NCBI GenBank assembly: GCA_041659325.1
Contig: JBAZYN010000002.1
Location: 140,906 to 204,905 of the forward strand
Source: Candidatus Shapirobacteria bacterium
GTDB taxonomy: Bacteria; Patescibacteriota; Microgenomatia; UBA12405
Length of the DNA stretch: 64,000 nt
Reading direction: 5' to 3'
The position numbers and the translations under genes are program-made. The notes beneath the pieces were generated by a model. The model was given only the letters and a program-made list of their open reading frames with translations, was not told the origin of the DNA and did no database searches. Below are positions 13,884 to 53,471 of the stretch, piece after piece (the first letter of the stretch is position 1; each line of letters opens with the position of its first letter).

Positions 13884-14100
13884 TAATTTTTTGATAGTTA
13901 AAAAATAACGACATCATCGATAAAATATAAACATTACACCAGGGGGATGGTTGACTTATCCACATGATGATAAAGGAGTTTTCCACAATTAACAATGTGT
14001 CAAATCAACTTCAAATTTAATTATTGTAATCAGTAATCTGTAATCAGTAATTGGTAATTGATGGTCGGTAATTGGTGATAAATATGTTAAGATAGGATTT
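13884..14100. promoter_or_regulatory. oriC part I: AT-rich unwinding region, DnaA boxes and GTAATNN array upstream of dnaA, divergent from rpmH
   Basis: Perfect TTATCCACA at 13966-13974 and TTTTCCACA at 13979-13987. AT-rich runs at 13884-13940 and 14009-14035. The position (dnaA divergent from rpmH-rnpA-yidC) is the canonical origin location. Confidence 0.55.
14036..14090. repeat. GTAATNN 7-nt-period tandem array (G1) in the origin region
   Basis: gtaatca gtaatct gtaatca gtaattg gtaattg atggtcg gtaattg gtgataa. Confidence 0.8.
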
Positions 14101-14232
14101 ATGATAGAAGGAAAACAAAAAGTAAAAAGCACAAAAAGAAAACAGGGGTTTTTAAGAAAGATGTCGACTCAGGACGGCAGAAATGTAATTAAAAGAAGAA
14201 GATCAGCGGGAAGAAAGAGATTGGCAAAATAG
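14101..14232 (+). CDS. rpmH: 50S ribosomal protein L34
   Basis: Not in the ORF track (43 aa). It reads MIEGKQKVKSTKRKQGFLRKMSTQDGRNVIKRRRSAGRKRLAK, matching the L34 pattern K/R-rich ... GFR.RM.T..GR.VL.RRR.KGR..L. Confidence 0.8.
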   Translation: MIEGKQKVKSTKRKQGFLRKMSTQDGRNVIKRRRSAGRKRLAK

Positions 14233-14245
14233 AGTAAAATAGTTT

Positions 14246-14572
14246 GTGCTCCAAAAAAAAGATAGGTTGACTAAAAAAAAGGATTTTCAGGACGTCAGGT
14301 TGAGAGGACGGATGATTCAGTCCCCTTTGTTTGGGTTGAATTACTTAAACTCAGAGAATGGAAATAAATTTGGTTTTATTATCTCCAAAAAGATTTCCAA
14401 GAGGGCGGTTGACAGAAACAGGATAAAAAGGCTATTGGCAGAAGGGGTACGGATGAATATGGATAAAATAAAGGTGGGAGTTTGGGGGGTTTTTTTGGCG
14501 AAAAAGACCTTGCTTGGAAAAAAATTTGAGGAAGTGGAGGGGGAGGTAAGAAAAGTATTTGGTAATCTGTAA
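14246..14572 (+). CDS. rnpA: ribonuclease P protein component
   Basis: 108 aa and basic. Carries the RNR-like motif (KRAVDRNRIKRLL). Sits between rpmH and yidD, the conserved order. Confidence 0.8.
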   Translation: MLQKKDRLTKKKDFQDVRLRGRMIQSPLFGLNYLNSENGNKFGFIISKKISKRAVDRNRIKRLLAEGVRMNMDKIKVGVWGVFLAKKTLLGKKFEEVEGEVRKVFGNL

Positions 14573-14636
14573 CCAGTAATTAGTAACTGGTAACCTACCT
14601 GTCGGCAGGCAGGTCTGTAATTGGTAATCGGTAATA
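14560..14636. repeat. GTAATNN array pair flanking a hairpin (G2) between rnpA and yidD
   Basis: ggtaatc tgtaacc agtaatt agtaact ggtaacc, then tACCTGtcggcaggCAGGTc, then tgtaatt ggtaatc ggtaata. Confidence 0.75.
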
Positions 14637-14848
14637 TATTAGAAATGAAGAAATTAATCCTAATAATATTGAGGTTTTATAAGAGATATATTTCACGTGG
14701 GTATATCTGCCGGATGATACCTAGCTGCTCTGAATATACATATGAAGCGGTAGAAAAATATGGGGTGGTTAAGGGATTGTGGTTGGGGGGGAAGAGGGTG
14801 GTGAGATGTAATCCCCGGGGAAAGGGCGGAATCGATCTGTTAAAATAG
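14621..14848 (+). CDS. yidD: membrane protein insertion efficiency factor YidD
   Basis: ISRGYICRMIPSCSEYTYEAVEKYG...RCNPRGKGGID is the YidD signature. The true start may be MKKL at 14645. Confidence 0.8.
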   Translation: MVIGNILEMKKLILIILRFYKRYISRGYICRMIPSCSEYTYEAVEKYGVVKGLWLGGKRVVRCNPRGKGGIDLLK

Positions 14849-14855
14849 GAGCATT

Positions 14856-15632
14856 ATGAATATTTTTGCAGCACCGTTTGTTAACGCACTTTTTGGGTTT
14901 TATTACCTATTTGGAAATTTGGGTTGGTCGGTGGTGGTGGTAACAATTTTGATCAGATTGCTTTTGCTGCCCCTGGTTTTGCCCAGTTTAAAGTCGGCAA
15001 ACAAAATGAGGGATTTGCAGCCAAAACTAAATAGACTTAAGGAGAAATACGGGAGTGACAAGAAGGGATTGGCAACGGCGCAAATGGATTTGTATAAGCA
15101 GGAAGGGATAAATCCCCTATCAGGGTGTTTGCCGCAGATTTTGCAAATCGCAGTTTTGCTGATATTTTTTTCGGCTTTTAATATGGTTACTTCGTATTCG
15201 GCCGGAAAAGGCAGTATGGAGCAGATTAATAACCATTTGTTGCAGCAATTTAAAATTGACGATAGCTTTAAATTCAATATAGATTTTTTTGGATCGAGCT
15301 TGATTAAAACTCCCTCAGAATTGTTTAAAGATGGAATAGGAGTGGGTTTAATATTGCCCTTTGTGCTTTTAATCGGATCGGGATTATTGCAGTTTTTGAG
15401 CGCCAAAATGATGATGCCGGCGGCAGAAACCGACAAGGAGGTAATTGAAAAAACGAAGGATAAAGAAGATGATATGATGTCGGCCATGAGAACACAGTCG
15501 ACTTATATGATGCCCCTGATGACAGTGTTTATAGGTTGGGGTTTTTCTTTGGGAATTTTGTTATATTGGTTTGTAAATTCGGCGGTAATGCTTGTACAAC
15601 AAATGGTGTCCAACAGAGTGAATAAAGCGTGA
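14856..15632 (+). CDS. yidC: membrane protein insertase YidC/Oxa1 (short form)
   Basis: Five TM helices and the conserved P-L..L.P region (LLLPLVLPSLKSANKMRDLQPKLNRLKEKY) and GCLPQILQI. Confidence 0.85.
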   Translation: MNIFAAPFVNALFGFYYLFGNLGWSVVVVTILIRLLLLPLVLPSLKSANKMRDLQPKLNRLKEKYGSDKKGLATAQMDLYKQEGINPLSGCLPQILQIAVLLIFFSAFNMVTSYSAGKGSMEQINNHLLQQFKIDDSFKFNIDFFGSSLIKTPSELFKDGIGVGLILPFVLLIGSGLLQFLSAKMMMPAAETDKEVIEKTKDKEDDMMSAMRTQSTYMMPLMTVFIGWGFSLGILLYWFVNSAVMLVQQMVSNRVNKA

Positions 15633-15645
15633 TAAAATAGCGACT

Positions 15646-16113
15646 ATGGATAACAAAGAGCGAAACGAAACAATTTTGCAGCTTACCTGTGAATTACTTG
15701 GCAAGATGAACCTGGAGGTAGAGAATGCCTTTGTAGAAGATATTGAGGATGAAGAAGGTCAGGTACTAGTGGGAGTAACGGTGGCAAATCCGGCAAGTTT
15801 AATCGGTTTTAGGGGAAGAAATTTGGCGGCGGTTCAGACAGTGTTGTCTTTGATGGTAAAAAGTAAATTGGGCGAGTGGCTGAGAGTACTTTTGGATGTA
15901 AATAATTACAGAGAGGAGCAAAAAACCAGATTGGAATCGATGGTGAAAAACTTGGCGGAAAAAGTTTTGGAGACAGGCCGGAGTGTGGCACTGGCTAATA
16001 TGAGTTCATATGAAAGAAGAATTTGCCATATGTCGTGTTCAACTATCGAGGGAGTGGTGTCGGAATCCGAGGGCGAGGGCGAAGATAGACATGTGGTGAT
16101 TAAAAAGGCGTAA
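15646..16113 (+). CDS. jag: Jag/KhpB-like RNA-binding protein (KH + R3H)
   Basis: The C-terminal R3H segment is YERRICHMSCSTIEGVVSESEGEGEDRHVVI. The location after yidC is conserved. Confidence 0.7.
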   Translation: MDNKERNETILQLTCELLGKMNLEVENAFVEDIEDEEGQVLVGVTVANPASLIGFRGRNLAAVQTVLSLMVKSKLGEWLRVLLDVNNYREEQKTRLESMVKNLAEKVLETGRSVALANMSSYERRICHMSCSTIEGVVSESEGEGEDRHVVIKKA

Positions 16114-16149
16114 AGCGATAATAGGTTGATGGGCATGGTAGTATAGGGC

Positions 16150-17370
16150 GTGAAGAGGTTTTTGCTTTGGGGTGAGAGGTTGTTTTTGTTTCTTTTTATC
16201 CTTTTTATTCCAACCCAACTGGGGAAACATTTTTGGCCGGAATGGAGCTATGTGTGGGGAATAAGGGTCGATTATTTTTCGCCGGTTTTATATTTTTTGG
16301 ATCTGTTGTGGGTGAGCTGGTTTGGGTTTTATGTTTGGAGTGGGAAAAAAATAGAGACCAAAATTACATTTAAATTTTTTATATTTTTGATGTTTGTGGC
16401 CGTTAATATTTTGATAGCAAAAAACCAGATGGTGGCGGTTTATAAGTGGTTTAGGTTGGGACAGTTGGTATTGACCTGGGTAGTTTTTCGAAAGGATAGA
16501 AAAAGGGTGGAGGAATTTTTGACCAAAGCTATCCCCTGGTGGGTAATTCTGGAAAGTTTACTGGGGTTAGGGCAGGTTTTGATCGGATCGAGTGTAAATG
16601 GCTGGGCATATTTTTTGGGAGAAAGGAGATTTGCCTATACAACTTTGGGGGTAGCGCAGATTTCGGTTTTGGGACAGGGATTGGTTCGGGCCTATGGGAC
16701 TTTTTCACACCCGAATAGTTTGGCGGGATTTTTGTTGGTTAGTCTGATTATCTGGTTTGGCAAAAAGAAGGAGATAAACAGGACTTTTTGGTGGGCGATT
16801 ACCTGGATGGCGGTAGTGGGGATAGTAGTGTCGGGAAGTAGACTGGTGTGGATTCTAACTATGTTGGTAATAATGGCGGTGACTTATTTGCAGTCACGGG
16901 ATAAAAAGAAGGTGGTGGGGGTGGGGATAACGCTGATCGGGATTTTTGTTTTATTGGTAGCGGTGGTGAGTGTGAATTATCGAAGTAGTGATTTTTTGGG
17001 TGGTTGGGATAAAGAGGGTCTGAGCAAAAGAATCAGCTTGAACATGTCGGCAATGAGAATGGTGCGGATCAATCCGCTATTTGGGGTGGGGTTGGGGAAT
17101 TTTATTGTAAGGCTACCGGAGATGCAAAAAAGTGAAAGCTATTTTTGGTTGCAACCGGTTCATAACATAGGACTTCTGGTACTAAGTGAAATTGGGTTTT
17201 TTGGATTAATATGGGTGTTTTTGTTTTTATCGGGATTGAACCGGGGCAGAGTGGCTTTAACCCAGAAAATGATTTGGGTGGCAATATTGGTGACGGGGAT
17301 GTTTGATCACTATTGGCTAACGCTACCCCAAAATTCCTGGTTTTTGGTGGTGGTGATGGCTATTTTGTAA
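16150..17370 (+). CDS. O-antigen ligase/polymerase-like (Wzy_C) polytopic membrane protein
   Basis: About 10 TM helices, with a periplasmic loop carrying HPNSLAGFLLV...SGSRLVW. Confidence 0.55.
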   Translation: MKRFLLWGERLFLFLFILFIPTQLGKHFWPEWSYVWGIRVDYFSPVLYFLDLLWVSWFGFYVWSGKKIETKITFKFFIFLMFVAVNILIAKNQMVAVYKWFRLGQLVLTWVVFRKDRKRVEEFLTKAIPWWVILESLLGLGQVLIGSSVNGWAYFLGERRFAYTTLGVAQISVLGQGLVRAYGTFSHPNSLAGFLLVSLIIWFGKKKEINRTFWWAITWMAVVGIVVSGSRLVWILTMLVIMAVTYLQSRDKKKVVGVGITLIGIFVLLVAVVSVNYRSSDFLGGWDKEGLSKRISLNMSAMRMVRINPLFGVGLGNFIVRLPEMQKSESYFWLQPVHNIGLLVLSEIGFFGLIWVFLFLSGLNRGRVALTQKMIWVAILVTGMFDHYWLTLPQNSWFLVVVMAIL

Positions 17371-17383
17371 AGTAGAATAGATT

Positions 17384-18610
17384 ATGATGAAGAAGCCGAT
17401 TGTAAATACGGTAGTCCAGGTGTTGGGGAAGGTAGTAATGATTGGAGTAAGCCTGTTGACAACGGGTTTGTTGACTAGGGGTTTGGGAGTGGAAGGGTAT
17501 GGAAATTATATTTTGATCACCTCGGTATTTGTTTTAATTGACTCTTTGGCTGATTTTGGAACCAGGATTATCGGGATTAAGGAGGCGGCGGGCGCTGAGA
17601 GCGAGAATGAGAAAAGACGAATATGGGTTCAGATTATGTGGCTACGACTTTTATTGACAGGATCGGCGTTTGTGGCAGGACTGGGGTTGGTGTTTTTTTG
17701 GCGGGGTTTTTCGGGTATCAGACTTGAAGCGGGGGTGGCACTTCTTATGATTTGGTTTACTTCGGTGGCCGGAAGTATAGAGGTCGTGTGGCAGACTCGG
17801 ATGCAGATGTGGGTGAAAGTGTTGGCGGAAACAATATTTCCGGTAATGTTTTTGGGACTGCTGTATTCTGTTTCCGGGCCATTGAACCTGTTTTTGGTGT
17901 TTGGATGTGTGTTGGTGTCAAGAGCTATCAGTCTGGCTTTGGGGTTAAAGGCGGTGTTTTTTGTAATCGACCGAAAGCAGATAAAACCGATAGATTTTGG
18001 GTTTGTTAAAAAAATGTTTATTTTGGCCTGGCCGATGGGGTTGTATCTTCTGATTTTTTCGTCGTATGACCGGGCAGTGGACTCAATGATGATCGAGAGG
18101 ATGGTGGGGGTAAGAGAAGTAGCCTGGTACGGACTTTCGTACAAAATATACTCTACTCTATTGCAACCGGCATACTTTTTTGTCGGAAGTATATTTCCTT
18201 TGTTGTCGGGGAAAAGTGTAGCGGGTGGCAAAAAAAGATTAGTGGGAGTTTCTTTGGGGCTATTGGTTTTGGGAGCGGGAGTGGTGATAACGAGTGTGTA
18301 TTTTTTGGCGCCGTGGATTGTTGCGGTACTAGCGGGTTCTGAGTATGGTGAATCGGCGGTGATTTTGAGGTATTTGCTAGGGGCGGTGTTTTTTTCATAC
18401 CTTGGTCATTTGGCCGGGTTTACACTAATATCCAGGGGTAAACAGAAAACCATGCTAGTTTTTGGGGTGATAGTTTTGGTGTTTAATGTGGTGGCCAACC
18501 TGGTGGCGATACCGCGTTTTGGAGTTTACGGAGCGGCGGGAGTGACGGTAATGACTGAAGCTTTGGGGAGTATTTTGATGATAGGGACATTGGTAATTAG
18601 TAATCGGTAA
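17384..18610 (+). CDS. polysaccharide/oligosaccharide flippase (Wzx/MOP superfamily)
   Basis: A 12-14-TM protein with Wzx-like N-terminal features (VLGKVVMIGVSLLTTGLLTRGLGVEGYGNY). Confidence 0.6.
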   Translation: MMKKPIVNTVVQVLGKVVMIGVSLLTTGLLTRGLGVEGYGNYILITSVFVLIDSLADFGTRIIGIKEAAGAESENEKRRIWVQIMWLRLLLTGSAFVAGLGLVFFWRGFSGIRLEAGVALLMIWFTSVAGSIEVVWQTRMQMWVKVLAETIFPVMFLGLLYSVSGPLNLFLVFGCVLVSRAISLALGLKAVFFVIDRKQIKPIDFGFVKKMFILAWPMGLYLLIFSSYDRAVDSMMIERMVGVREVAWYGLSYKIYSTLLQPAYFFVGSIFPLLSGKSVAGGKKRLVGVSLGLLVLGAGVVITSVYFLAPWIVAVLAGSEYGESAVILRYLLGAVFFSYLGHLAGFTLISRGKQKTMLVFGVIVLVFNVVANLVAIPRFGVYGAAGVTVMTEALGSILMIGTLVISNR

Positions 18611-18633
18611 TCTGTAATCTGTAATGTGTGGCG
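18591..18633. repeat. GTAATNN array (G3) at the flippase gene 3' end, abutting its terminator
   Basis: ggtaatt agtaatc ggtaatc tgtaatc tgtaatg. Confidence 0.75.
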
Positions 18634-18653
18634 GCCGGAAAGGCCGCCTTTTT
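18630..18653 (+). terminator. rho-independent terminator after the flippase gene
   Basis: GGCGGCCGGAAAGGCCGCC hairpin followed by TTTTT. Confidence 0.5.
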
Positions 18654-18795
18654 GATATAGAGTCGTGGCGAGAAGCTTGCAGCAAGGTAATGACGGGGTG
18701 TTTTTGATGTACTAATTGGTTTGTCGTAATAACGATATTTTCTCTTTAATCCCTACAATATATTTTTGTTGGGACGAAATTTTTGGGATGAAATT

Positions 18796-18840
18796 CAAAA
18801 TCTACCCCTATCCCCTCCTTTGAAGAAAGGAGGGGAACAA
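18796..18840. repeat. palindromic element (P8), intergenic
   Basis: aaatctacccctatCCCCTCCTTTGAAGAAAGGAGGGGaacaag, near-identical to P6. Confidence 0.8.
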
Positions 18841-19005
18841 GAAGATGACGTTATTACGTTTTTTTCACGTTCTTACGTATTCCAAACCTAAGCATCTATG
18901 ATGTAATGACAAATAAACTTGTTAATAACCGCATATATACCGAAATATTACCGCAACACGCTTTTTGGGAACTAATGTGGAGAAAATTGATTTAGAATAT
19001 TAACT

Positions 19006-22000
19006 ATGAATTCGTCGGGGCCAGTGGCAATAGTTTATGGAATAGAAAAATTTGGAGCGAAGTTTTTGGTAAAGGAATTGCTGCTTAAAGATATATATGT
19101 GGTAGGAGTGGGAGAATATGTGTCGGGGATAGAGGAAAATGATAATTTTAGGTGGGTGGCGGGGAGAGGGGATTATGAGGGGAAGGTGAATTATGTTTTT
19201 GATTTTGAGGGAGATAAAAATATTTTTGATTTAGTTTTGAAGAACTCGGCTAAATTAACAGAGATATGCATTAACGACCAAAAAAAAGCGGAAAGAATAA
19301 AAAACGACTTGATTGGGGCGAATATTAACTGGAGGCTAATAGATGCACGGGGGGTGTATGGCCCGGGGATGGCAGATGATGGGGGAGGGAGGACCGGAAT
19401 TAATTTTTTAGTTGAGGCGGTGTCGGGGGCGGTGAAGAATGAAAATTTGGTTTTGCCGGCTTTGGGAACAAAGTTCAGGTTGTTGAATATTGTGGATTTG
19501 ACCGAAGTGGTTTTGAGGGCAAGCTTTTTATCGGGAACCGAGAAGGAGGAATATGTGATATTTGGCAATGAGAGTGACTCGGGGGAAGTAGCAAAGGTGT
19601 TGATTGATGAGGCAAAGATGACTAAGTTTAAGGTGGTCCAGAAGGATTATAAGTTTGAGACTCCAGGTAAGTATGAGATAGAAGAGAACTGGAGAAAATT
19701 ACGATGGCATCCCGGGGTGGAATTTAGAGAGGGAGTGGTGGAAACTTTGCAGTATTTTTTTTCGGTAATTGATGAAGAAAGCAGGAAAAAAATGAAAGAG
19801 GGGTCGAAAGCCAATAAGTCCAAAAGTCTGAAAGTCCAAAAGTCTGAAAGTCAGAAAATAAAAAAGGAGAAGAATTTATCGAGGTTTGAGGTGATGGTGG
19901 AGGAGGAAAAAACCAATTACGAATTACCAATTACCCACCCCGGCGGGCAGGCGAATTACGAATTAGAAAAAGATAAAAAAGAGACGGTAAGAAAGAATGA
20001 GGTGAGTAGGGAGGCAGAAGAAAGGAAAGCAGAAAAATACAAAAAGGAAATAGAGGAAGAATTTAAAAGGGCAAAAGAGAAAGAAGAGGAAAAAAAGGCG
20101 AAGGAGGAGATAATTTATAGTGAAGAGATTAAATCTTTGGCAAAACAATATACCCAAACCACACCACTGGAGAGAGATGAAGTGATAGAAGAGGACGAGG
20201 AAAGGATAGAGATAAAAAACGAGCTAAAAGACGGGCCTGCCCGCCTCGGTGGGTTAATCGGCAGGCAGGTTGAAAGTAGTAAAACGAGAGAAAAAAAAGG
20301 CGGGACAGGAATAATAAACTTTAAAAAGATCGGATTTTTGGTGATGATTATTTTGGGGTTGGGGATGTTTTCGATTCCGGTCGGGTGGGGGATAAAGGTG
20401 GTGGCCGGGATTAAAAATATCTCTAAAATCAGGGAATATATTGAGGAAGAAAAATACGCTGAGGCTGACAAAAAAGCAGAGACGACGATTGCCGGTTTGA
20501 AAAAAATCGACAACCAGATCGATGATTGGGGGCTAAATAGGATGAAGACTTTTAGGAATTTACAGACTGGGCTAAAGGTAGAGGAGGGAGTGTTGGTGAT
20601 TGAGAAAAAGGCGATTCCGATAGCGGAAGCAATGGAAAAAGTTAGCGGGGCGATTTTTGATGATAAAGAGATTTCCTGGGAAAGTGAACTTGAAGTTCTA
20701 AATAAAGGCATGGTGGAGGTTGATACTGAGATTGGGTTGCTGCAGGCTAGGCTTAATGGTGACTGGAACTGGTTGCCAGCCCGATTCCGACCGGAAGTGC
20801 AGAAGGGGATTAAAAGCTTAAACATGGCCAGATCGGTAATAGGAACTTCAAGGAAGGGACTGAATATCTTGAAAGAGTTTTTGGGAAGTGACGGAAAAAG
20901 GAGAGAATACCTGGTACTGTTTCAAAACGAAAATGAGCTTCGGGCAGGCGGAGGGTTTATCGGGTCGTGGGGGATGCTGAGTTTTGAGGGGGGAAAACTG
21001 CTTAACCTGGATATAAGGGACGTTTATGAGGCAGACGGACAGTTGAAAGGCCATGTTGAACCGCCGGCGGAAATTAAACAGTACCTGGGGGAGGCGGGGT
21101 GGTTTTTGAGAGATTCTAACTGGAAGGTGGATTTTGTGGATGCCAATAAGGATATTGAGTGGTTTTTGGAGAAGGAGACGGGAAGAAAGGTGGATGGGGT
21201 GATAGGGATTAATTTGGCGGTGGCCAAGGCGATACTGGATGTTACCGGGCCGATCTACGTGGTTGATTTTGGTGAAAAAATAGGTAAAGACAACCTATAT
21301 GAACAAGCTCAATTTTATGCAGAAAATAAGTTTTTCCCCGGCTCTAAACAGAAGGCTAGCTTTTTGGGGGGACTGGGAAGACAGTTGTTTGAAGAAATCA
21401 GGAATTTGGATTCGAAAAAGATGCTGGAGCTATATCTCCAAATATTAGAGCAGTTTGATAAAAACGAAATCCAACTGGTAATGCATGAAAAGCAGGCGGC
21501 GAAAATTGCGGCAGATTTGGGGTGGGACGGGGCGATATACCAGGGAAAGTGCCTGACTGACCGGTGTTATGCCGATTATTTGTATTTGTCAGAATCTAAC
21601 TTTGGAGTGAACAAGGCCAATTATTATATATACAGAGGGATTGAGCAGACGGTTGATATTACCCAAATGGCCATCAGCAGGGTGCTGAAAATTAACTACG
21701 AGAACACGGCGAAAAATAAAAGTTGGCCGGGTGGGGATTATAAAAATTATTTGAGGGTTTATATACCACAAGATACGAATCTGGCGGAGGTGAGTATTTC
21801 GGATTCGGCACAACCAGGAAAGAAATCGGTGGTGGGGGCAGGGGAGATGAAGATATCACAAATTTATAATAAAAAAGAAATAGGATTTTTAGTGCCGGTA
21901 CCGGTGGGGCAGAAAAGAACTGTAGAGATTAGATACGTAAGTAAAATTGATTTGGGGATAAAGGATAAATTCTCGTACCTTGGGTATATCCAGAAACAGT

Positions 22001-22659: not shown

Positions 22660-22670
22660 ACTTTATTATA

Positions 22671-44907: not shown

Positions 44908-44946
44908 AAGTCTGAAAGTTCAAAAGTCTTAAAGTCTTAAAGTTGA
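44908..44946. repeat. AGTCNNAA array (A3, spacer between tRNA-Ala and 23S)
   Basis: agtctgaa agttcaaa agtcttaa agtcttaa agttgagg. Confidence 0.8.
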
Positions 44947-45664: not shown

Positions 45665-45750
45665 AGTCTAAAAGTTGCAAGTCTAAAAGTCTAAAAGTAA
45701 AAAAATACTTTAAAGACCTTGGACTTTAAGACTTTCGACTTAGAGCGCGG
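45665..45750. repeat. AGTCNNAA array plus its inverted copy forming a long hairpin inside 23S rRNA (A4)
   Basis: agtctaaa agttgcaa agtctaaa agtctaaa agtaaaaaaa, then tactttaaagaccttggactttaagactttcgactt, which is the reverse complement of another 8-mer array. Confidence 0.8.
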
Positions 45751-47908: not shown

Positions 47909-48798
47909 AGCCATAAAGGCTGTCGGGGTGGGCGGAAGTAATTCCGTTAGTTTGTTAATCAATGGGTCTTTTTGGTTTTTTATAAGTTTTTTTCAAAAAA
48001 CTTAATATCTAGCTCATAACGGTGAACACCTTAATTGACATTCGGGTAACCTTCGGGTTACTCTTATATGTTCAATGGTCAATACCGTGGGAAGTCTAAC
48101 GAAAGTGCAAAAATCCATTCTTATTGGAAGTCTTTTAGGAGACGGTACAATGAGAAAGAAAATAAATGCATATCTTGAGGTAAATCATGCCTATTCACAA
48201 AAAGTATTAGTGGATTGGAAATATTGCCAATTAAAAAATTTGGTAATAACTCCGCCAAAATGGAGAAGAGGGAATGGAAAGAGAGAAGCTTACCGCTTCT
48301 TTACCCGAAGTTTACCGATTTTAACTCCGTTTTATAATAAATTTTTTATTAACGGGAAGAAAACAATTCCCGATAATTTAAAATTAAATGCTTTGAGTTT
48401 AGCTGTGTGGTTTATGGATGATGGGTCTAAAAGCCGATCATCTATTTATTTAAATACTCAACAGTTTACGGTTGATGAACAAAACCGGCTGATATTTCTT
48501 TTGGAAGATCAGTTTGGAATTAAATCGACTTTAAACAAAGATAAAATTTATTTTCGAATTCGTGTAAGAAGCGAAAGTTCAAAAAAAATGGTAAAAATTA
48601 TTGAAAAATATATTTTGCCCGAACTTAGGTATAAATTGCCAATTGTTATGACCCCGTAACGACTTGTTTTCCGATGTATATCGGGAGACAGATTCATTAT
48701 TTTATAATGGATAATACGCTAGCTCCTACTCTCAATCATATTGAGACAAGAGGATGAAGGGATAGTCTAAGACCATAAGAAATTATGGAATGACATTG
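47909..48798 (+). mobile_element. intron (probably group I) in 23S rRNA, at the GGCACCTC^GATGTCG site (E. coli ~2500 region), encoding a LAGLIDADG homing endonuclease
   Basis: Exon homology with E. coli 23S stops after GGCACCTC (47901-47908) and resumes at GATGTCGACTTGG (48799). The intervening sequence contains the 48075-48659 ORF. Boundaries are ±3 nt. Confidence 0.7.
48075..48659 (+). CDS. LAGLIDADG homing endonuclease (intron-encoded, two-motif monomeric type)
   Basis: Motif 1 SILIGSLLGDGTMRKK and motif 2 LSLAVWFMDDGSKSRS. Located inside the 23S rRNA gene. Confidence 0.85.
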   Translation: MVNTVGSLTKVQKSILIGSLLGDGTMRKKINAYLEVNHAYSQKVLVDWKYCQLKNLVITPPKWRRGNGKREAYRFFTRSLPILTPFYNKFFINGKKTIPDNLKLNALSLAVWFMDDGSKSRSSIYLNTQQFTVDEQNRLIFLLEDQFGIKSTLNKDKIYFRIRVRSESSKKMVKIIEKYILPELRYKLPIVMTP

Positions 48799-49305: not shown

Positions 49306-49423
49306 TTTCGGTCACTGGAGCGAGGTGGAACCACCTTTTCCCATTTCGAACAGAGAAGTGAAACGCCTCAGCGCTGACAATAGGCTTCCCACAAGGGACT
49401 TTGAAGATAGGTCGTGGCCGAAA
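49306..49423 (+). rRNA. 5S rRNA
   Basis: CCCATTTCGAACAGAGAAGTGAAACGCCTCAGCGCTGA matches the conserved 5S loop C/helix III core. The terminal helix is TTCGGTCAC/GTGGCCGAA. Confidence 0.75.
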
Positions 49424-49495
49424 TCGAGAAACTAAAACGAAACCCTTTCCGGATAAACCGGTATTTCCCTTGAAAAGGGCAAATAAAAAGGGCAA

Positions 49496-49530: not shown

Positions 49531-49630
49531 AAGAGAATTGATTCAAATAGATTAAAAAAAGATTTATGTTAATAATTTATTTAGGGTAGACAATCCCGTT
49601 TATTCCCTGATATAGGGGATTTTTTATTAT

Positions 49631-50809
49631 ATGGCTAAAAAAAATAAAGATAGTCAGAAAGTCTCAAAGTCGAAAAGTCTCAAAGTCGAAAAGTCTCAAA
49701 GTCGAAAAGTCTCAAAGTCAAAAGTAGGTGAGGTTTTTTCCATGGCGGATTTGTTGAAACTGGAGGGGTCAATACCACTAGGGCTTAAAAAAGGTCAGGA
49801 TATTAAGGGAAAAATAACTTCGATAAAAAATAAGGCGATATTTATCGACGTAGGCGGGAAAACTGATGCGGTGGTAATGGGGAAAGAGTTTGAATTTGTG
49901 AAAGACTATGTGGCAGATTTGAAAATTGGAGATGAGATAGAAGTTCAGATTAAATCTCCGGAAAATGACAAGGGACAAATTTTGGTATCTATCAGAGGAG
50001 CCGCCTCGGGTTATGGTTGGAATTATTTTAAAGATAAAGAAAAGAGCGGTGGGGAAGTGACGGTTTTTGCGAAAGAACTAAACCGCGGAGGAACGGTGGT
50101 GGTGGCGCCATTTGGATTCTTTGGATTTATTCCGGGCTCTCAAATAGGCGGTAAATACGATGGCGATCCGGAAAAAATGCTGGGGAAGAAAGTTAAGGCG
50201 AAGGTTTTGGAAGTAGACCAGGCCAAAAATAGACTAGTTTTCTCGGAAAGATTGGTGTCTGAGCCCGGTAAGGTGGGCGAAGAAGTGAACGCGATTGAGA
50301 ATCTAAAAATCGGTGATGATTTTGAGGCCGATGTGGTACGGGTGGAGCCATTTGGAATTTTTGTTCGAATTAGTTTTATGGCCGGAGAACAGAAATTGAT
50401 CTTGGAGGGATTGGTGCATATTTCTGAAATTTCATGGGAAAAAGTGGAAAATGTGTCATCGCTGTTTAAAGCCAAAGATAAGATAAAAGTAAAATTAATT
50501 AACAAGAGTGAGGGAAGACTGCAATTTTCCTTGAAGAGAATGTCGTCTGACCCGTGGGAAAAGATTGAGGAAAAATATCCGAAAGAGAAGGAGCTTGAAG
50601 GAGTAGTGGTAAGAATTGCTAATTTCGGCGCCCTGGTAAAACTGGAAAACGGGGTGGAGGGATTGGTTCACATATCAAAACTTATCGGCGGAGTGGTTTT
50701 GAAAGAAGGCGAAAAGGTGCAGGTATATATAGAAAGCGTGGATGTGGCGAAGAGAAAAATTTCTTTGGGACTGGTGGCGATGGATAAGAAGAATGTGATT
50801 TATAAATAG
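49631..50809 (+). CDS. rpsA: 30S ribosomal protein S1-like (four S1 domains) with N-terminal repeat-derived insert
   Basis: S1 motifs FGIFVRISFMAGEQKLILEGLVHISEISW and FGALVKLENGVEGLVHISKL. The N-terminal KSKSLKVEKSQSRKVSKSKVGE is encoded by the AGTCNNAA array at 49653-49725. Confidence 0.7.
   Translation: MAKKNKDSQKVSKSKSLKVEKSQSRKVSKSKVGEVFSMADLLKLEGSIPLGLKKGQDIKGKITSIKNKAIFIDVGGKTDAVVMGKEFEFVKDYVADLKIGDEIEVQIKSPENDKGQILVSIRGAASGYGWNYFKDKEKSGGEVTVFAKELNRGGTVVVAPFGFFGFIPGSQIGGKYDGDPEKMLGKKVKAKVLEVDQAKNRLVFSERLVSEPGKVGEEVNAIENLKIGDDFEADVVRVEPFGIFVRISFMAGEQKLILEGLVHISEISWEKVENVSSLFKAKDKIKVKLINKSEGRLQFSLKRMSSDPWEKIEEKYPKEKELEGVVVRIANFGALVKLENGVEGLVHISKLIGGVVLKEGEKVQVYIESVDVAKRKISLGLVAMDKKNVIYK
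49653..49725. repeat. AGTCNNAA array (A5, in-frame at the rpsA 5' end), 16-nt super-period x3.5
   Basis: (agtctcaa agtcgaaa) x3, then agtctcaa agtcaaa. Confidence 0.9.
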
Positions 50810-50819
50810 GTAAGCTAAT

Positions 50820-50855
50820 GGTCGAAAGTCTAAAAGTCTGAAAGTAGAAAGCTTG
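50820..50855. repeat. AGTCNNAA array (A6, between the rpsA stop and its terminator)
   Basis: ggtcgaa agtctaaa agtctgaa agtagaaa gcttgaaa. Confidence 0.75.
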
Positions 50856-50861
50856 AAAAAA

Positions 50862-50886
50862 GCCCCGCTGAATCGGCGGGGCTTTT
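50862..50886 (+). terminator. rho-independent terminator after rpsA
   Basis: GCCCCGC-TGAATCG-GCGGGGC followed by TTTTATT. Confidence 0.6.
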
Positions 50887-50901
50887 ATTACCGATTGTCC
50901 T

Positions 50902-51363
50902 GTGATAGTATGGGGTATGTCGAATGAAACACCTGTAGAACTGCCGTCATCTTCTTTATCATTGAAAGAAAAATTAAGGCAGGAGATCGAAGGATCAGGG
51001 ATTGATCCAGAGATTGTCAGGGCGGTGGCGCTAAGATCGAAGTATTTGTTGGAGACAGCCGAAGCATCCAGTGAGTTGGATAGATTAAGGGGAGAAGGGT
51101 CGGATGTATCGGGGCTCCGTTATAGGTCGTGTGAACTTAATTTACAGGAAAGTATTGTCAGGAAAGGCACGGCGGATGCATTAGTTGCTATTAAATTTGA
51201 TCCGGGCGATGTGGAGGCTGCGGAGGTGTTAGTGAGTGAAATCAAGGCAAGAGAAAGGGAGCGATGGTCCAAGGAATCGAAAAGAGGCGATGGTTATCCA
51301 AATTATCAGTCTATTGTGGTCCTTGACTGTGTTGTAGAAGCAACGTCGCGTAAGAAAGGCTGA
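50902..51363 (+). CDS. hypothetical protein
   Basis: 153-aa ORF followed by a hairpin (51444-51468, CCCCACCGAATCGGCGGGGTTTTT) resembling the rpsA terminator. Confidence 0.4.
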   Translation: MIVWGMSNETPVELPSSSLSLKEKLRQEIEGSGIDPEIVRAVALRSKYLLETAEASSELDRLRGEGSDVSGLRYRSCELNLQESIVRKGTADALVAIKFDPGDVEAAEVLVSEIKARERERWSKESKRGDGYPNYQSIVVLDCVVEATSRKKG

Positions 51364-51811
51364 ATTTATGGAGGGTTACAATATATGTGGTTTGGATAAT
51401 GGAGATTTTACCAAAGGCGGGCAGGGCAAGGAGGGATCTTGGGAGCCCCACCGAATCGGCGGGGTTTTTGGTATGATATAATGCGATATGGCAGTCGGAG
51501 ATGTAATACGAAGAAACCTTCCATGTAGTGTTTCTGATGGTGAGGCGAGGGTGACTTTTGTGGAAAGTGAGGGTTATTGGACAAAGAAGTGTGAGGGGTG
51601 TGGTCGTTCTGGGGGTAAAGAGGGTTTACCTTGGTTGGAATCTGAAAGTGGGGCGGTAACACCAACAACAGCAGTTAGGGTGACCCGATGTTCGATGGTA
51701 TTAGAGTAAAGGCGCGGATAAGGGGTTGATAAGCGGACTGGTGCACTCTGGTTTTGATGTGCGGATTTCTCTGAGTCAAGATTTCTCCGTACATAACGGT
51801 AAAATTTTGTA

Positions 51812-51886
51812 GGTTTCACCAGAGGGGCTAGGAACGAAGAAAAGCAATGTAATCAGTAAACAGTAACCGGTAATTGGTAAAATAAA
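51812..51886 (+). promoter_or_regulatory. conserved ~75-nt upstream leader (copy 1, before the GT-C glycosyltransferase gene), containing GTAATNN array G4
   Basis: ggtttcaccagaggggctaggaacgaagaaaagcaatgtaatcagtaaacagtaaccggtaattggtaaaataaataa. It is ~90% identical to the 53397-53471 copy. Confidence 0.6.
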
Positions 51887-51889
51887 TAA

Positions 51890-53362
51890 ATGGAGAAAAA
51901 TCGGATGTGGTTTTGGGGAATTATGGTTGCTTGTTTATTGCTGAGTAGTTGGTGGCTTATACAGAATAATTTACTTTTTCATTCAGATGTGGGAAGAGAT
52001 ATGTATTTGCTAAAAGATATCGTGGACAACCGGCATCTGACATTAATCGGACCCAGATCGAGTTTGTCCGGTTTTTTTCACGGACCTTTGTGGTTGTATA
52101 TAAGCTTGCCAGTATTTTTGATAGGGGCGGGAAATCCAGTGGTAATGGCGATTTTTTGGTTGATATTATTGATACTCAGTTGGTGGTTGGTTTATCAAAC
52201 AGGAAGAAGGATGACGGATGAAACGACAGCGATGGTGGCGACAGTATTGGTGGGTAGTGCGACTATTTTAAATAGTCATGCGACGATTAATTCATATGGG
52301 GCAGTAATAATTTTTCCGCTATTTTATTATTGTTTCGGAGAATATATAAGAACAAAGAAAACTAAATATTTGGGTTTGGGGCTGTTGGTTGGCGGGGCAA
52401 TGGTTCAATTTGAAATTGTCTTTGGATTACCAATGCTTTCTGTGTTGATAATATATAGCGTATTTGAGATTTTTAGAAGCCGAAAATGGCGGAATATGTG
52501 GATATATATGTTGTTGTTGGTGCCATTTTCGACATATTTGATATTCGATTTGAGGCACGAGTGGATACAAACAAAAGCAGTTCTGGGGATGTCGGGAGAC
52601 TTTTCGGCATTTAATTGGCCAGATATGATTAATTGGTGGAAATTAATGACAGGAAATAAAATATTGGCCTGGTTTGCGGTAATTGGGGTGATTTGGGTAA
52701 GCTTAATAAAATTTAAAAATAGAAATAATGAATATGATTCATGGTGGTTGTGGGGAGGAACAGTGGTGGTTTTATGGGGAGTGTTGATGGTAATGAAAAT
52801 AGAATCGGTAGATTTTTACTATTTACCTTTGATCTCGGCGATGGCAATGATGATTGCCTGTCTGAAAAATTATTTTAACAAGCGGTTATACTGGGTGTTG
52901 ATAGTGTCGATAGTATCGGTAAACTTGATTAGGGCGGTAAAAGACACGGTGAACTATTCCAGAGATGTAAATCGCCAAGATCAGGCCACTTGGTTGGCAA
53001 ACGTAGAAGCAGGGAATTGGGTAGTGGATCACTGCGGCAATAATTTTGGTTATTTTGTTTATAGCTCGGATCTATATGGTTATTCATTGAGATATATGAT
53101 GGATCATTTGAAGATAAAAGAAGATGTTATTGGAGATTTGAACGTAAAGAAAGAAATAACCTGTTTATTGATGGGCCCAAATTCAATAGAGAACAATTGG
53201 AGCCGGGAAACTTGGAGGGAAAGTGATGTGAAAATTAAAACAAAACCGGCAGAGCTAAAATTATTTGGAAATGGGATATTGGTGGAAAAATATATATTAT
53301 CTGCTGAAGAGCAAAAAATAGCACCAAATCCATTTTTGATTAAGGACGCAGCTTTTAGATAA
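51890..53362 (+). CDS. GT-C superfamily glycosyltransferase (ArnT/PMT-like, polytopic)
   Basis: About 12 TM helices. The first extracytoplasmic loop carries HSDVGRDMYL (an acidic D/E motif after TM1). The overall topology is typical of lipid-linked sugar transferases. Confidence 0.5.
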   Translation: MEKNRMWFWGIMVACLLLSSWWLIQNNLLFHSDVGRDMYLLKDIVDNRHLTLIGPRSSLSGFFHGPLWLYISLPVFLIGAGNPVVMAIFWLILLILSWWLVYQTGRRMTDETTAMVATVLVGSATILNSHATINSYGAVIIFPLFYYCFGEYIRTKKTKYLGLGLLVGGAMVQFEIVFGLPMLSVLIIYSVFEIFRSRKWRNMWIYMLLLVPFSTYLIFDLRHEWIQTKAVLGMSGDFSAFNWPDMINWWKLMTGNKILAWFAVIGVIWVSLIKFKNRNNEYDSWWLWGGTVVVLWGVLMVMKIESVDFYYLPLISAMAMMIACLKNYFNKRLYWVLIVSIVSVNLIRAVKDTVNYSRDVNRQDQATWLANVEAGNWVVDHCGNNFGYFVYSSDLYGYSLRYMMDHLKIKEDVIGDLNVKKEITCLLMGPNSIENNWSRETWRESDVKIKTKPAELKLFGNGILVEKYILSAEEQKIAPNPFLIKDAAFR

Positions 53363-53396
53363 TTATTTGCCCTTAAGATACTATAAATTAAGAAGT

Positions 53397-53471
53397 GGTT
53401 TCACCTGAGGCCCTAGAAACGAAGAAAAGCAATGTAATCAGTAAACAGTAACCTGTAATTGGTAAAATAAA
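53397..53471 (+). promoter_or_regulatory. conserved ~75-nt upstream leader (copy 2, before radA), containing GTAATNN array G5
   Basis: ggtttcacctgaggccctagaaacgaagaaaagcaatgtaatcagtaaacagtaacctgtaattggtaaaataaaggg. Confidence 0.6.

What the first reader, a model, noticed from the sequence alone, without database searches (positions are those of the whole stretch)
14036..53471. GTAATNN 7-nt-period tandem arrays at five intergenic, promoter-proximal sites, and a ~75-nt conserved leader shared by the GT-C glycosyltransferase gene and radA
Arrays of 4-8 units of (G/A/T)GTAA(T/C)(C/T/A/G) occur at the origin, between rnpA and yidD (flanking a hairpin), at the end of the flippase gene, and within two near-identical ~75-nt segments immediately upstream of the 51890 and 53475 start codons. 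The two 75-nt segments (ggtttcacc(a/t)gagg(gg/cc)ctag(g/a)aacgaagaaaagcaatgtaatcagtaaacagtaacc(g/t)gtaattggtaaaataaa) differ at positions that could be compensatory (gaggggctagg vs gaggccctaga). That hints at a structured RNA leader or a shared operator. A period-7 repeat cannot be accommodated in coding sequence, which is consistent with the strictly non-coding distribution, in contrast to the period-8 family.
Basis: seen in the sequence. Interest (0 to 1): 0.55.

Follow-up and report, generated by a model that had tools for sequence, protein, structure and literature searches.

The report
Heptamer repeat arrays and duplicated promoter
The GTAATNN arrays are real but are one more family of the fast-changing 7-base simple repeats already known from cyanobacteria and other bacteria, and the shared 75-base "leader" is a duplicated promoter for leaderless transcripts, not a structured RNA.

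Summary
The window comes from a Candidatus Shapirobacteria (CPR) genome. The GTAATNN arrays exist where reported, plus one missed: 11 three-unit matches against 0 expected. The two 75-nt segments are 70/75 identical and flank the GT-C gene as direct repeats.

- The arrays are not strictly non-coding. Two supply the last codons and stop codon of rnpA and the flippase gene. An antisense copy lies in-frame inside a DUF4012 gene.
- A relative with 93% identical DnaA has, at the same sites, no array, the same family inverted, or a different heptamer.
- Four-unit GTAATNN arrays occur in cyanobacteria, Bacteroidota, Chloroflexota, Planctomycetota and other CPR.

So this is an STRR-like heptamer simple-repeat family that turns over quickly at permissive sites.

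The 75-nt segment shows no fold, no covariation and no Rfam match. It consists of a ~36-nt motif conserved between rpsA and radA in related contigs, a ~20-bp array insertion, and TGGTAAAAT six bases before the ATG. That layout indicates an extended -10 promoter for a leaderless mRNA.

Verdict: a new member of a known kind, of modest interest. Tunable promoter spacing or small mobile elements remain possible.

The parts
14026..14081 (+). GTAATNN array A1. It has 8 registers, 6 of them intact: GTAATCA GTAATCT GTAATCA GTAATTG GTAATTG atggtcg GTAATTG gtgataa. It lies between the two DnaA boxes (13956, 13979) and the rpmH start at 14102. Its last units run into TGGTGATAAAT, a -10-like sequence.
   Evidence: The 93%-DnaA relative L202 has CCCTTGAC-type hairpin elements here instead of an array.
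14562..14596 (+). GTAAYNN array A2 (5 units). It encodes the last three codons (G N L) and the TAA stop codon (14570-14572) of rnpA.
14597..14616 (+). GC-rich palindromic insert ACCTGTCGGCAGGCAGGTCT between arrays A2 and A3. Related copies lie at 19936-19953 (-), at 20234-20273, and after rho just beyond the window (L212).
14617..14637 (+). GTAATNN array A3 (3 units). It ends 8 nt before the yidD ATG at 14646. Its last unit forms TAATAT, 7 nt before the ATG.
   Evidence: The relative L202 has (AATTACG)n, the same family in the opposite orientation, at this junction.
18593..18627 (+). GTAATNN array A4 (5 units). It encodes the last five codons (V I S N R) and the TAA stop codon (18608-18610) of the Polysacc_synt flippase gene. 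It sits immediately 5' of the terminator hairpin at 18630-18648.
   Evidence: The relative L202 has (GACTAGA)5 at the same place, before the same conserved hairpin.
19912..19966 (-). Antisense GTAATNN element A5: 2 units, then a GC palindrome (19936-19953), then 3 units. It lies in-frame inside the DUF4012 ORF (19006-22158) and is translated as TNYELPITHPGGQANYEL. It is a 51-nt insertion relative to the 75%-identical ortholog.
51812..51886 (+). 75-nt promoter module, copy A, upstream of the GT-C gene (ATG at 51890). It contains the conserved motif (about 51808-51843), the array (51849-51876), and the extended -10 TGG (51875-51877) plus TAAAAT (51878-51883), which ends 6 nt before the ATG.
53397..53471 (+). 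75-nt promoter module, copy B, upstream of radA (ATG at 53475). It contains the conserved motif (about 53393-53428), the array (53434-53461), and TGG (53460-53462) plus TAAAAT (53463-53468), which ends 6 nt before the ATG.
51890..53362 (+). GT-C (PMT_2 / GT39-like) glycosyltransferase gene, bracketed by the two 75-nt direct repeats. Relatives differ in whether they carry it.
53475..54845 (+). radA, the gene that the conserved motif and leaderless promoter precede in relatives.

Best explanation
The GTAATNN arrays are a lineage-specific family of heptanucleotide simple-sequence repeats. This is the same kind of element as the short tandemly repeated repetitive (STRR) heptamers of cyanobacteria, here in a Candidatus Shapirobacteria (CPR) genome.

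How they behave:
- They arise and turn over quickly at positions that tolerate extra DNA. The process is inferred to be slipped-strand expansion of GTAA-containing seeds, possibly helped by insertion together with a small GC-rich palindrome. The tolerant positions are intergenic spacers, the last codons of genes, and disordered protein linkers.
- Strand matters only passively. The GTAAT strand carries TAA in all three frames every 21 nt, so in sense orientation an array can only sit outside genes or end one. The complementary strand is open and can be translated (..NYEL..).
- They have no conserved sequence-specific function of their own. Upstream of genes they are simply promoter spacer DNA.

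The '75-nt leader' is a duplicated promoter module with four parts:
1. A ~36-nt upstream motif that is conserved across the family. Its 3' end is the ancestral -35 region, and the motif is probably an operator or activator site.
2. About 20 bp of GTAATNN array, inserted in this lineage only.
3. An extended -10, TGGTAAAAT, whose TG comes from the last array unit.
4. The ATG 6 nt later, so the mRNA is leaderless.

Shown: the anatomy, the conservation pattern, the absence of RNA structure, and the turnover between relatives. Inferred: the transcription start site and leaderless status, slippage as the generating process, and protein binding to the motif.
For: Distribution across bacteria:
The 120 loci are mostly filamentous cyanobacteria. 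They also include Bacteroidota, Chloroflexota, Planctomycetota, Verrucomicrobiota, Acidobacteriota, KSB1 and CPR (Kuenenbacteria, Peregrinibacteria).
- These arrays often adjoin other heptamer arrays that differ by one or two bases, which is what drift of the repeat unit would look like.
- Related Microgenomates contigs carry many other heptamer families: AATTTCC, TTAGATC, GTAGATC, AAAGTGG, TAATTTT, CTCTAGT.

Turnover between relatives:
- In contigs with 93% identical DnaA and the same synteny (L201-L203), the dnaA-rpmH site has no array, the rnpA-yidD site has the same family inverted, and the flippase 3' end has (GACTAGA)5.
- In DUF4012, the window's array-palindrome-array is a 51-nt in-frame insertion. 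It is absent from the 75%-identical ortholog, which has (GAGACNA)4 there and its own antisense GTAAT array elsewhere in the linker.

Promoter reading:
- TAAAAT or TATAAT lies 5-6 nt before the ATG in all radA/GT-C copies.
- 15 of 38 long ORFs in the window have TAWAWT 5-9 nt before an ATG near the 5' end of the ORF.
- The distance from the motif to the -10 is 19-21 nt in relatives without insertions (24 in L129) and 40 nt in both window copies.
- L207 and L123 have the same TGGTAAAAT without an array.

No RNA element.

Literature: heptameric simple repeats are over-represented in bacterial intergenic regions and are functionally uncharacterised (PMC4692102).
Against: - GTAA is almost invariant across 31 units while positions 6-7 vary freely. 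That pattern is not expected from neutral decay of slippage products and could mean selection on the core.
- All six sense-strand arrays abut gene boundaries, and four abut start codons. The same family appears in either orientation at homologous hot spots, three times next to a related GC-rich palindrome. This fits insertion of a small element at least as well as local slippage.
- No transcription start site data exist. The leaderless promoter reading rests on consensus positions only.
- Only 64 kb of this genome and about 130 kb of relatives were examined.
Confidence: 0.6

Rival explanations
1. Tunable promoter spacers (contingency loci). Gain or loss of 7-bp units changes the distance and helical phase between the conserved upstream motif (or -35) and the -10. 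This would switch or grade expression of GT-C, radA, rpmH and yidD, as (ATCTTTC)n does upstream of Haemophilus influenzae hmw1A.
For: - The array sits exactly between the conserved motif and the extended -10, and adds 20 bp relative to L207, L123 and L125.
- Two array-associated genes make surface glycans (GT-C, flippase), which is a typical target class for phase variation.
- A heptamer repeat is known to control hmw1A expression (PMC12721329).
Against: - The arrays are short (3-6 units) and imperfect, which makes them poor slippage substrates.
- Housekeeping genes are involved as well.
- Two arrays lie at gene 3' ends and one is inside an ORF.
- The relative's array is identical in three samples (L201-L203), and the window's arrays are identical in the Logan assembly. 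That assembly may, however, derive from the same community.
- Insertions in this spacer across relatives (+20, +21, +29, +62, +80 bp) keep no consistent helical phase.
Confidence: 0.15
2. Miniature mobile elements. The unit that spreads is an array with or without a small GC-rich palindrome, analogous to the small dispersed repeats nested in heptamer arrays of Nostoc. It inserts in either orientation at preferred targets such as hairpin-adjacent sites or existing arrays.
For: - There is a presence/absence polymorphism of a discrete 51-nt array-palindrome-array block in DUF4012.
- The same family is in opposite orientation at the rnpA-yidD junction in the relative.
- Related palindromes (RCCTGYC...GGCAGGCAGGT) lie next to arrays or array remnants at 14597, 19936 and 20234. 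Another lies next to period-8 arrays after rho in L212.
- Nostoc locus L018 also shows an array-insert-array arrangement.
Against: - No target-site duplication, transposase or RAYT-like gene was seen.
- The palindrome copies are only about 50-70% alike.
- Array lengths and units differ between copies, as expected from in-situ expansion.
- The window keeps one GAGACGG unit at the DUF4012 site, so hot-spot permissiveness explains part of the pattern.
Confidence: 0.17
3. Cis-regulatory RNA. The 75-nt segment is a structured 5' leader, or the GUAAUNN repeats on the mRNA are bound by an oligomeric RNA-binding protein of the TRAP or HutP type that controls translation initiation.
For: - Four arrays end 6-28 nt before start codons that lack an obvious Shine-Dalgarno sequence.
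- The period-7 spacing is like HutP sites (UAG-N4; from general knowledge, not tested here).
Against: - The segments fold no better than shuffled sequence: z = +0.95, -0.06 and +0.08.
- RNAalifold predicts 0 pairs on 11 copies, and there is no Rfam match.
- The -10 box lies 6 nt before the ATG, which leaves the array untranscribed.
- Orientation flips, unit sequence changes or the array is absent at orthologous sites in the close relative.
- Orthologous radA promoters in L207, L123 and L125 have no array.
Confidence: 0.04
4. The conserved 36-nt motif is a recombination site. It would be either an attachment site or the only homology island, through which gene cassettes such as GT-C enter the rpsA-radA slot. 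The 75-nt direct repeats would be the two junctions.
For: - GT-C is bracketed by direct repeats in the window and by two diverged motif copies in L208.
- L208 and L126 are 99.9% identical over 1014 nt and diverge inside the motif right after GAGAGGCGT. One carries GT-C and the other goes straight to radA.
- The gene content between rpsA and radA differs in almost every relative, with spacing from 75 nt to 2.7 kb.
Against: - No recombinase was identified near the site; only a few of the neighbouring ORFs were scanned against Pfam.
- L207 has GT-C with a single motif copy.
- The downstream L208 copy does not carry the L126 right half that a simple att-type crossover would produce.
- The window repeats include the array and the -10, which suggests promoter duplication or gene conversion.
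Confidence: 0.1

Closest known systems
Cyanobacterial STRR heptanucleotide repeats, and the general excess of heptameric simple repeats in bacterial intergenic regions (Mazel et al. 1990 and Mrazek et al. 2007, as cited in PMC4692102; GGGAATC and GGGGAYT repeats in Rehm et al. 2015, PMC4692102)
   Same: - Tandem 7-nt units in several dispersed arrays per genome, mostly intergenic.
- Length and sequence vary between close relatives, and no function is established.
- Literally the same GTAATNN unit forms arrays of 4 to 17 or more units in many cyanobacteria.
   Different: - The host is a small-genome CPR bacterium.
- The arrays are short (3-8 units) with a fixed GTAA core and free positions 6-7.
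- Several arrays overlap gene ends or lie in-frame in a protein linker.
- The unit is AT-rich, so G-quadruplex formation is not an issue.
Haemophilus influenzae hmw1A/hmw2A (ATCTTTC)n repeat (PMC12721329; PMC2424069)
   Same: A heptanucleotide repeat lies immediately upstream of a gene, and the gene makes or modifies a surface structure.
   Different: - The hmw repeat has at least 11 perfect units and is transcribed in the 5' UTR. It forms a long hairpin cut by RNase III, and its unit number varies within populations.
- Here there are 3-5 imperfect units, no hairpin partner and no detected structure.
- The array probably lies upstream of the transcription start site, and no length variation was seen.
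Small dispersed repeats (SDR) of Nostoc punctiforme (Elhai et al. 2008, Genome Res 18:1484). The reference is listed in PMC3116915. Details are recalled from memory because the paper could not be opened.
   Same: Palindromic elements of about 20 nt sit inside or beside heptamer arrays and show presence/absence differences between related genomes.
   Different: - Only four diverged copies were seen here.
- Mobility is not shown.
- The lineage and the sequence differ.
Extended -10 (TGnTATAAT) promoters of leaderless mRNAs (general knowledge of sigma-70 promoters)
   Same: TGGTAAAAT lies 6 nt before the ATG, there is no Shine-Dalgarno sequence, and the same layout appears in orthologous radA promoters and in many other genes of the window.
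   Different: This is a consensus inference only. No transcription start site data exist for this organism. A 36-nt conserved upstream motif of unknown partner accompanies the promoter.
TRAP and HutP binding-site arrays in Bacillus leaders (general knowledge)
   Same: A short conserved core is repeated with non-conserved spacers, and HutP sites have a 7-nt period.
   Different: Orientation, sequence and presence are not conserved at orthologous sites, and the arrays are probably not transcribed. A gene for a TRAP- or HutP-type binding protein was not looked for.

Membership tests
Heptanucleotide simple repeats / STRR-like repeats | Head-to-tail tandem copies of a 7-nt unit, at least 3 units, more than chance would give | tested here: met
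   11 three-unit matches against 0 expected. TRF reports period 7. Period-7 runs: 5 observed against 0.3 in shuffles.
Heptanucleotide simple repeats / STRR-like repeats | Several dispersed arrays of one unit family within a genome | tested here: met
   7 arrays in 64 kb, all with a GTAA(T/C)NN unit.
Heptanucleotide simple repeats / STRR-like repeats | Mainly intergenic location | tested here: met
   - In the window, 4 arrays are fully intergenic, 2 straddle stop codons and 1 is inside an ORF.
- Across other phyla, 27% of arrays lie in long antisense open frames, against 79% of random segments in any long open frame.
Heptanucleotide simple repeats / STRR-like repeats | Rapid change of length, sequence or presence between related genomes | tested here: met
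   In contigs with 93% identical DnaA the array is absent, inverted or replaced by another heptamer at the three orthologous sites. The DUF4012 sites also differ.
Heptanucleotide simple repeats / STRR-like repeats | Host is a heterocystous cyanobacterium (original STRR definition) | tested here: not met
   The window is Candidatus Shapirobacteria. It is therefore filed as STRR-like, not as STRR proper.
Phase-variable promoter repeat (hmw1A type) | Repeat located within the promoter or 5' UTR of the controlled gene | tested here: met
   The array lies between the conserved motif and the -10 of GT-C and radA.
Phase-variable promoter repeat (hmw1A type) | Long, perfect repeat tract prone to slippage | tested here: not met
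   3-5 units, and no two adjacent units in the promoter arrays are identical.
Phase-variable promoter repeat (hmw1A type) | Unit-number polymorphism within or between populations | tested here: inconclusive
   Only identical copies were available (L206, L209 and L210 for the window; L201-L203 for the relative). Raw reads cannot be examined with these tools.
Cis-regulatory structured RNA leader | Conserved secondary structure supported by covariation | tested here: not met
   RNAalifold predicts 0 pairs on 11 copies. MFE z-scores are +0.95 and -0.06.
Cis-regulatory structured RNA leader | Match to a curated RNA family | tested here: not met
   No Rfam match at gathering score, and none on the segments at E<=10.
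Cis-regulatory structured RNA leader | The element is transcribed as a 5' UTR | not testable with these tools
   The -10 box 6 nt before the ATG argues against it. No transcription start site data are available.
SDR-like or REP-like miniature mobile element | Small palindromic unit nested in or beside heptamer arrays | tested here: met
   Copies at 14597-14616, 19936-19953 and 20234-20273, and at the L212 end.
SDR-like or REP-like miniature mobile element | Many near-identical copies and an associated transposase (for example a RAYT) | tested here: inconclusive
   Only four diverged copies in about 70 kb. No transposase was seen among the ORFs scanned. Most of the 335-kb contig could not be reached.
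Shared operator or regulon motif | The same motif upstream of several unlinked genes | tested here: not met
   A position-weight-matrix (PWM) scan finds only the two copies in the window (the next best score is 16 bits, against 41-43). It finds one or two copies per related locus, all within the rpsA-radA interval.
Shared operator or regulon motif | Conservation of the motif upstream of orthologous genes across species | tested here: met
   14 copies in contigs whose RadA is 59-72% identical or whose GT-C is 59-63% identical.

The most novel reading that the evidence does not exclude
Heptamer arrays might be written by an active, family-specific process rather than by passive slippage. That process could be targeted insertion of array-plus-palindrome blocks, or conversion or templated synthesis at hairpin-adjacent hot spots. 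It would install a genome's current unit (GTAATNN here, GAGACNA in the sister lineage) in either orientation at the same permissive sites. The same process could operate in CPR, cyanobacteria, Bacteroidota and Chloroflexota. In promoters such as GT-C and radA, the arrays would then act as adjustable spacers between a conserved operator and the -10.
Probability: 0.1. Interest if true: 0.7.

Novelty: new member of a known kind. Interest (0 to 1): 0.3.

Why it matters
If the main reading is right, the finding is mostly descriptive.
- It extends the long-known but unexplained heptamer-repeat phenomenon to ultra-small CPR genomes. It also shows that such repeats can rewrite gene ends, protein linkers and promoter spacing there.
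- For annotators, it gives a practical warning. ORF ends such as ..VISNR* or ..GNL*, and peptides such as NYELPIT, are repeat-derived. Assemblies also break at these repeats.
- The more useful by-products are a conserved 36-nt upstream motif and a leaderless extended -10 promoter layout for Shapirobacteria radA, and a variable gene slot between rpsA and radA. These are testable entry points into gene regulation and gene flux in organisms that have no genetic system.

Tried and rejected
- **Rfam.** Searches at gathering score (whole window) and at E<=10 (51360-53500) found nothing on the arrays or the 75-nt segments.
- **RNA folding.** Folding of seven array regions showed only the known terminator at 18630-18648 and the GC palindromes forming helices. 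The arrays themselves are unstructured.
- **Covariation.** RNAalifold on 11 motif copies predicted no pairs.
- **Regulon search.** A position-weight matrix of the motif was scanned over the window and 1.47 Mb of fetched loci. No copies were found outside the rpsA-radA interval.
- **Helical phasing.** The window (+20 bp) and L126 (+21 bp) suggested phasing of insertions between the motif and the -10. L122 (+29), L208 (+62) and L121 (+80) contradicted it.
- **GC skew to confirm the origin.** The result is uninformative because the skew is positive throughout.
- **Sigma-70 consensus scan of 13880-19010.** It found 11 sites against 10.9 expected, and none at the arrays.
- **Exact look-up of the window's RadA.** It is not on record. 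The closest RadA relatives in the metagenome scan are only 59-72% identical.
- **Closer relative P0003** (DnaA 87% identical). No DNA was available.
- **Extension beyond the window**. About 5 kb was added, with no further GTAATNN array or motif copy.
- **Elhai et al. 2008.** The paper could not be opened, so the SDR comparison rests on memory.
- **Simple att-type crossover in the motif.** This was considered to explain L126 against L208. The downstream L208 copy lacks the expected right half.

Full report
**Source and gene context.**
The window carries these genes (Pfam):
- dnaA (12528-13883, minus strand), rpmH, rnpA, yidD and yidC;
- a Jag/KhpB-like gene, a Wzy_C gene and a Polysacc_synt flippase gene (17384-18610);
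- a 1050-aa DUF4012 gene (19006-22158);
- rpsA (49631-50809), a GT-C/PMT_2 glycosyltransferase gene (51890-53362) and radA (53475-54845).

It also carries 23S and 5S rRNA genes and two tRNA genes. The best named DnaA relatives are Candidatus Shapirobacteria and Woesebacteria. The DUF4012 protein is 100% identical to one from a 335-kb Candidatus Shapirobacteria MAG contig. Logan contigs of run SRR18595301 match the window without a single mismatch over 11856-18827 and 51839-53447. That span includes five arrays and both 75-nt copies, so the features are not artefacts of one assembly.

Yes, with corrections.
- GTAAYNN repeated three times matches 11 times against 0.00 expected. TRF reports period-7 arrays. 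Period-7 runs are enriched, 5 observed against 0.3 in shuffles.
- Chaining the units gives arrays at 14026-14081, 14562-14596, 14617-14637, 18593-18627, 51849-51883 and 53434-53468 on the plus strand.
- GTAA is almost invariant, position 5 is T or C, and positions 6-7 are free.
- The two 75-nt segments are 70/75 identical and lie as direct repeats on either side of the GT-C gene.

**The 'strictly non-coding' claim fails.**
- Array 14562-14596 contributes the codons GGT AAT CTG and the TAA stop codon of rnpA.
- Array 18593-18627 contributes V I S N R and the stop codon of the flippase gene.
- The minus-strand element lies in-frame in the DUF4012 gene and reads TNYELPITHPGGQANYEL.

The reasoning that period 7 cannot be coding is also wrong, because three units make seven codons. 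The true constraint is strand-specific. The GTAAT strand has TAA in all three frames every 21 nt, whereas the complementary strand is open. In 120 loci from other phyla, 33 of 124 arrays lie inside open frames of at least 150 codons that read the complementary strand. By comparison, 79% of random segments lie in any long open frame. Arrays are therefore depleted from genes but not excluded from them.

**What kind of thing is it?**
The 120 loci are mostly filamentous cyanobacteria. They also include Bacteroidota, Chloroflexota, Planctomycetota, Verrucomicrobiota, Acidobacteriota, KSB1 and two other CPR lineages.
- Arrays there reach 17 or more units and often continue into arrays of a neighbouring heptamer such as GGAATGG, GTGATTG or ATAATTG. 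This pattern suggests that the repeat unit drifts and then expands.
- Contigs from relatives of the window carry many other heptamer families: AATTTCC, TTAGATC, GTAGATC, AAAGTGG, TAATTTT and CTCTAGT.
- The literature already records an excess of heptameric simple repeats in bacterial intergenic regions. It also records the Calothrix heptanucleotide repeats and G-rich heptamers in Xanthomonas and Nostoc, with no established function (PMC4692102).

The arrays are therefore a member of a known, poorly understood class.

**Turnover between close relatives.**
Three contigs whose DnaA is 93% identical to the window's keep the same gene order. At the orthologous sites:
- *dnaA-rpmH spacer.* The DnaA boxes are conserved, but CCCTTGAC-type hairpin elements replace the array.
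- *rnpA-yidD junction.* The relative has (AATTACG)n, the same family in the opposite orientation. It overlaps the rnpA stop codon, abuts the yidD ATG, and has no palindrome.
- *Flippase 3' end.* The relative has (GACTAGA)5, directly before the same conserved terminator hairpin, and the stop codon is again inside the array.

The DUF4012 gene shows the same kind of change. The window's 51-nt array-palindrome-array is absent from the 75%-identical ortholog. That ortholog carries (GAGACNA)4 at this position, and the window retains a single GAGACGG unit there. The ortholog also has its own antisense GTAAT array (NNYQLPITNYEL) further along the linker. At that second position the window has a decayed unit next to a GC-rich element at 20234-20273.

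Position, orientation, unit sequence and presence are thus all labile. This argues against any strand-specific or sequence-specific role such as an RNA element or a binding-site array. It favours fast-evolving repeats at permissive hot spots.

Three observations keep an insertion-type process in play:
- the GTAA core is fixed;
- the family appears in both orientations;
- arrays recur next to related GC-rich palindromes at 14597, 19936 and 20234, and another copy lies after rho in L212.

**The 75-nt 'leader'.**
The closest RadA relatives in metagenomes are 59-72% identical. Their radA upstream regions share a ~36-nt motif with the 5' part of the window segment, GTGnnTTCACnAGAGGCnCTAGAAnnGAnG. 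Downstream of the motif comes a variable spacer, then TATAAT or TAAAAT, then the ATG 5-6 nt later.

The distance from a fixed motif position to the -10 varies as follows:

| Sequence | Distance (nt) | What fills the spacer |
|---|---|---|
| L207, L123, L125, L127, L130, L124 | 19-21 | nothing extra |
| L129 | 24 | nothing extra |
| Both window copies | 40 | the extra 20 bp is the GTAATNN array |
| L126 | 41 | CCCTTGACAAGGG-type hairpin element |
| L122 | 49 | other sequence |
| L208 | 82 | hairpin element |
| L121 | 100 | hairpin element |

- In the sequences without insertions, the 3' end of the motif sits where a -35 would be. It reads TTGACG in L130, TTGAAG in L124 and ACGAAG in most others.
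- L207 and L123 have the same TGGTAAAAT as the window but no array. The extended -10 is therefore ancestral, and the array probably grew from GGTAA seeds next to it (inference).
- A -10 box 5-9 nt before an ATG near the 5' end of the ORF is found for 15 of 38 long ORFs in the window. Leaderless transcription appears to be common in this genome.

On this reading the array is untranscribed promoter spacer, and the segment is not a leader.

**Tests of the RNA hypothesis.**
- The two copies fold no better than shuffled sequence, with z = +0.95 and -0.06.
- RNAalifold on 11 motif copies predicts no base pair.
- Rfam gives nothing.
Relatives have CC or CG at that position.

**Operator or recombination site?**
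- The motif is found only in the rpsA-radA interval. There are two copies in the window and one or two per related locus, and none elsewhere in 1.47 Mb of fetched DNA. It is therefore a locus-specific upstream element rather than a regulon-wide operator, as far as the data reach.
- The interval itself is a variable gene slot. The spacing between rpsA and radA ranges from 75 nt to 2.7 kb, and the gene content differs between relatives.
- GT-C lies directly upstream of radA in L207 with a single motif copy. In L208 it lies between two diverged motif copies.
- L208 and L126 are 99.9% identical for 1014 nt and diverge inside the motif, after GAGAGGCGT. L208 continues into GT-C and L126 continues into radA.
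- The motif may therefore also serve as a crossover point. A simple att-type exchange does not fit the downstream L208 copy, and no recombinase was seen among the few neighbouring ORFs scanned.

The window's 93%-identical repeats include the array and the -10. This points to recent duplication or gene conversion of a whole promoter module.

**Mechanism proposed.**
- *Shown:* the arrays are heptamer simple repeats that change quickly at permissive sites, and the 75-nt segment has promoter-like anatomy without RNA structure.
- *Inferred:* the arrays originate by slipped-strand expansion, possibly aided by insertion with a GC palindrome. Transcription of GT-C and radA starts at the ATG from an extended -10. 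The upstream motif binds an unknown factor whose action tolerates 20-80 bp of inserted DNA.

The main rivals are tunable promoter spacing as in hmw1A (PMC12721329) and miniature mobile elements like the Nostoc SDRs. Neither is excluded, and both are given lower weight.

**Verdict.**
Its interpretation holds only for the shared upstream DNA element. The finding is a new member of a known kind, and I score its interest at about 0.3.

Noticed in passing
window 19816-19866, 39239-39284, 44908-44943, 45665-45698, 49658-49725, 50825-50845, 53581-53612: - A second repeat family with period 8, AAAGTCNN, lies partly inside ORFs. In DUF4012 it reads KSKSLKVQKSESQK, and in radA it sits about 106 nt from the start.
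- The 75%-identical DUF4012 ortholog has the same family at the same place with about 9 units instead of about 5 (L211).
- L127 and L128 have (AATTTCC)4 at the equivalent radA position.
- One array falls within the 23S rRNA match.
   Followed up: partly
window 18813-18833, 53684-53704, 54675-54695; L121, L126, L127, L130, L202, L208: - A hairpin element, CCCTCC-TTGA(C/A)-GGAGGG, has a perfect TTGACA in its loop in some copies.
- It recurs in intergenic spacers and promoters of relatives.
- In the window it also lies in-frame inside radA, read as ..PLAPPLTKGGEG.. and ..NPPFDKGG..
- The Logan and JGI contigs L210 and L208 end within a copy of it.
   Followed up: partly
window 14597-14616, 19936-19953 (-), 20234-20273; L212 about 8445-8465: - A family of GC-rich palindromes, (A/G)CCTG(T/C)C...GGCAGGCAGGT, is always adjacent to heptamer or octamer arrays.
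- Two copies are translated inside the DUF4012 linker.
- One copy follows the rho gene just beyond the window.
   Followed up: partly
window 50809-53475; L121-L130, L207, L208: - The rpsA-radA interval is a variable gene slot, with 75 nt to 2.7 kb between the two genes and different inserted genes in almost every relative.
- L126 and L208 are 99.9% identical up to a point inside the conserved motif and then differ by the presence of GT-C.
- In the window, 51364-51811 has no convincing gene.
   Followed up: partly
window-wide, for example ATGs at 192, 2044, 6261, 15646, 23131, 27469, 59428: 15 of 38 long ORFs have TATAAT or TAAAAT 5-9 nt before an ATG near the 5' end of the ORF. This suggests widespread leaderless transcription in this Shapirobacteria genome.
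   Followed up: partly
window 12475-12516 and 13956-13987: There are two DnaA-box clusters, three boxes between dnaA and dnaN and two upstream of dnaA. GC skew is strongly positive (0.19-0.45) over the whole window and does not switch at dnaA.
   Followed up: no
window 48075-48659: A LAGLIDADG_2 homing-endonuclease ORF lies just downstream of the 23S rRNA match (45077-47994), and the 5S rRNA gene follows only at 49307. This may be an intron or an insertion at the 3' end of the rRNA operon.
   Followed up: no
window 42947-43316: Long tandem repeats with periods of 24, 27, 48 and 78 nt (up to 97% matches) lie inside the 821-aa ORF 41837-44302. They presumably encode a repetitive surface protein.
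   Followed up: no
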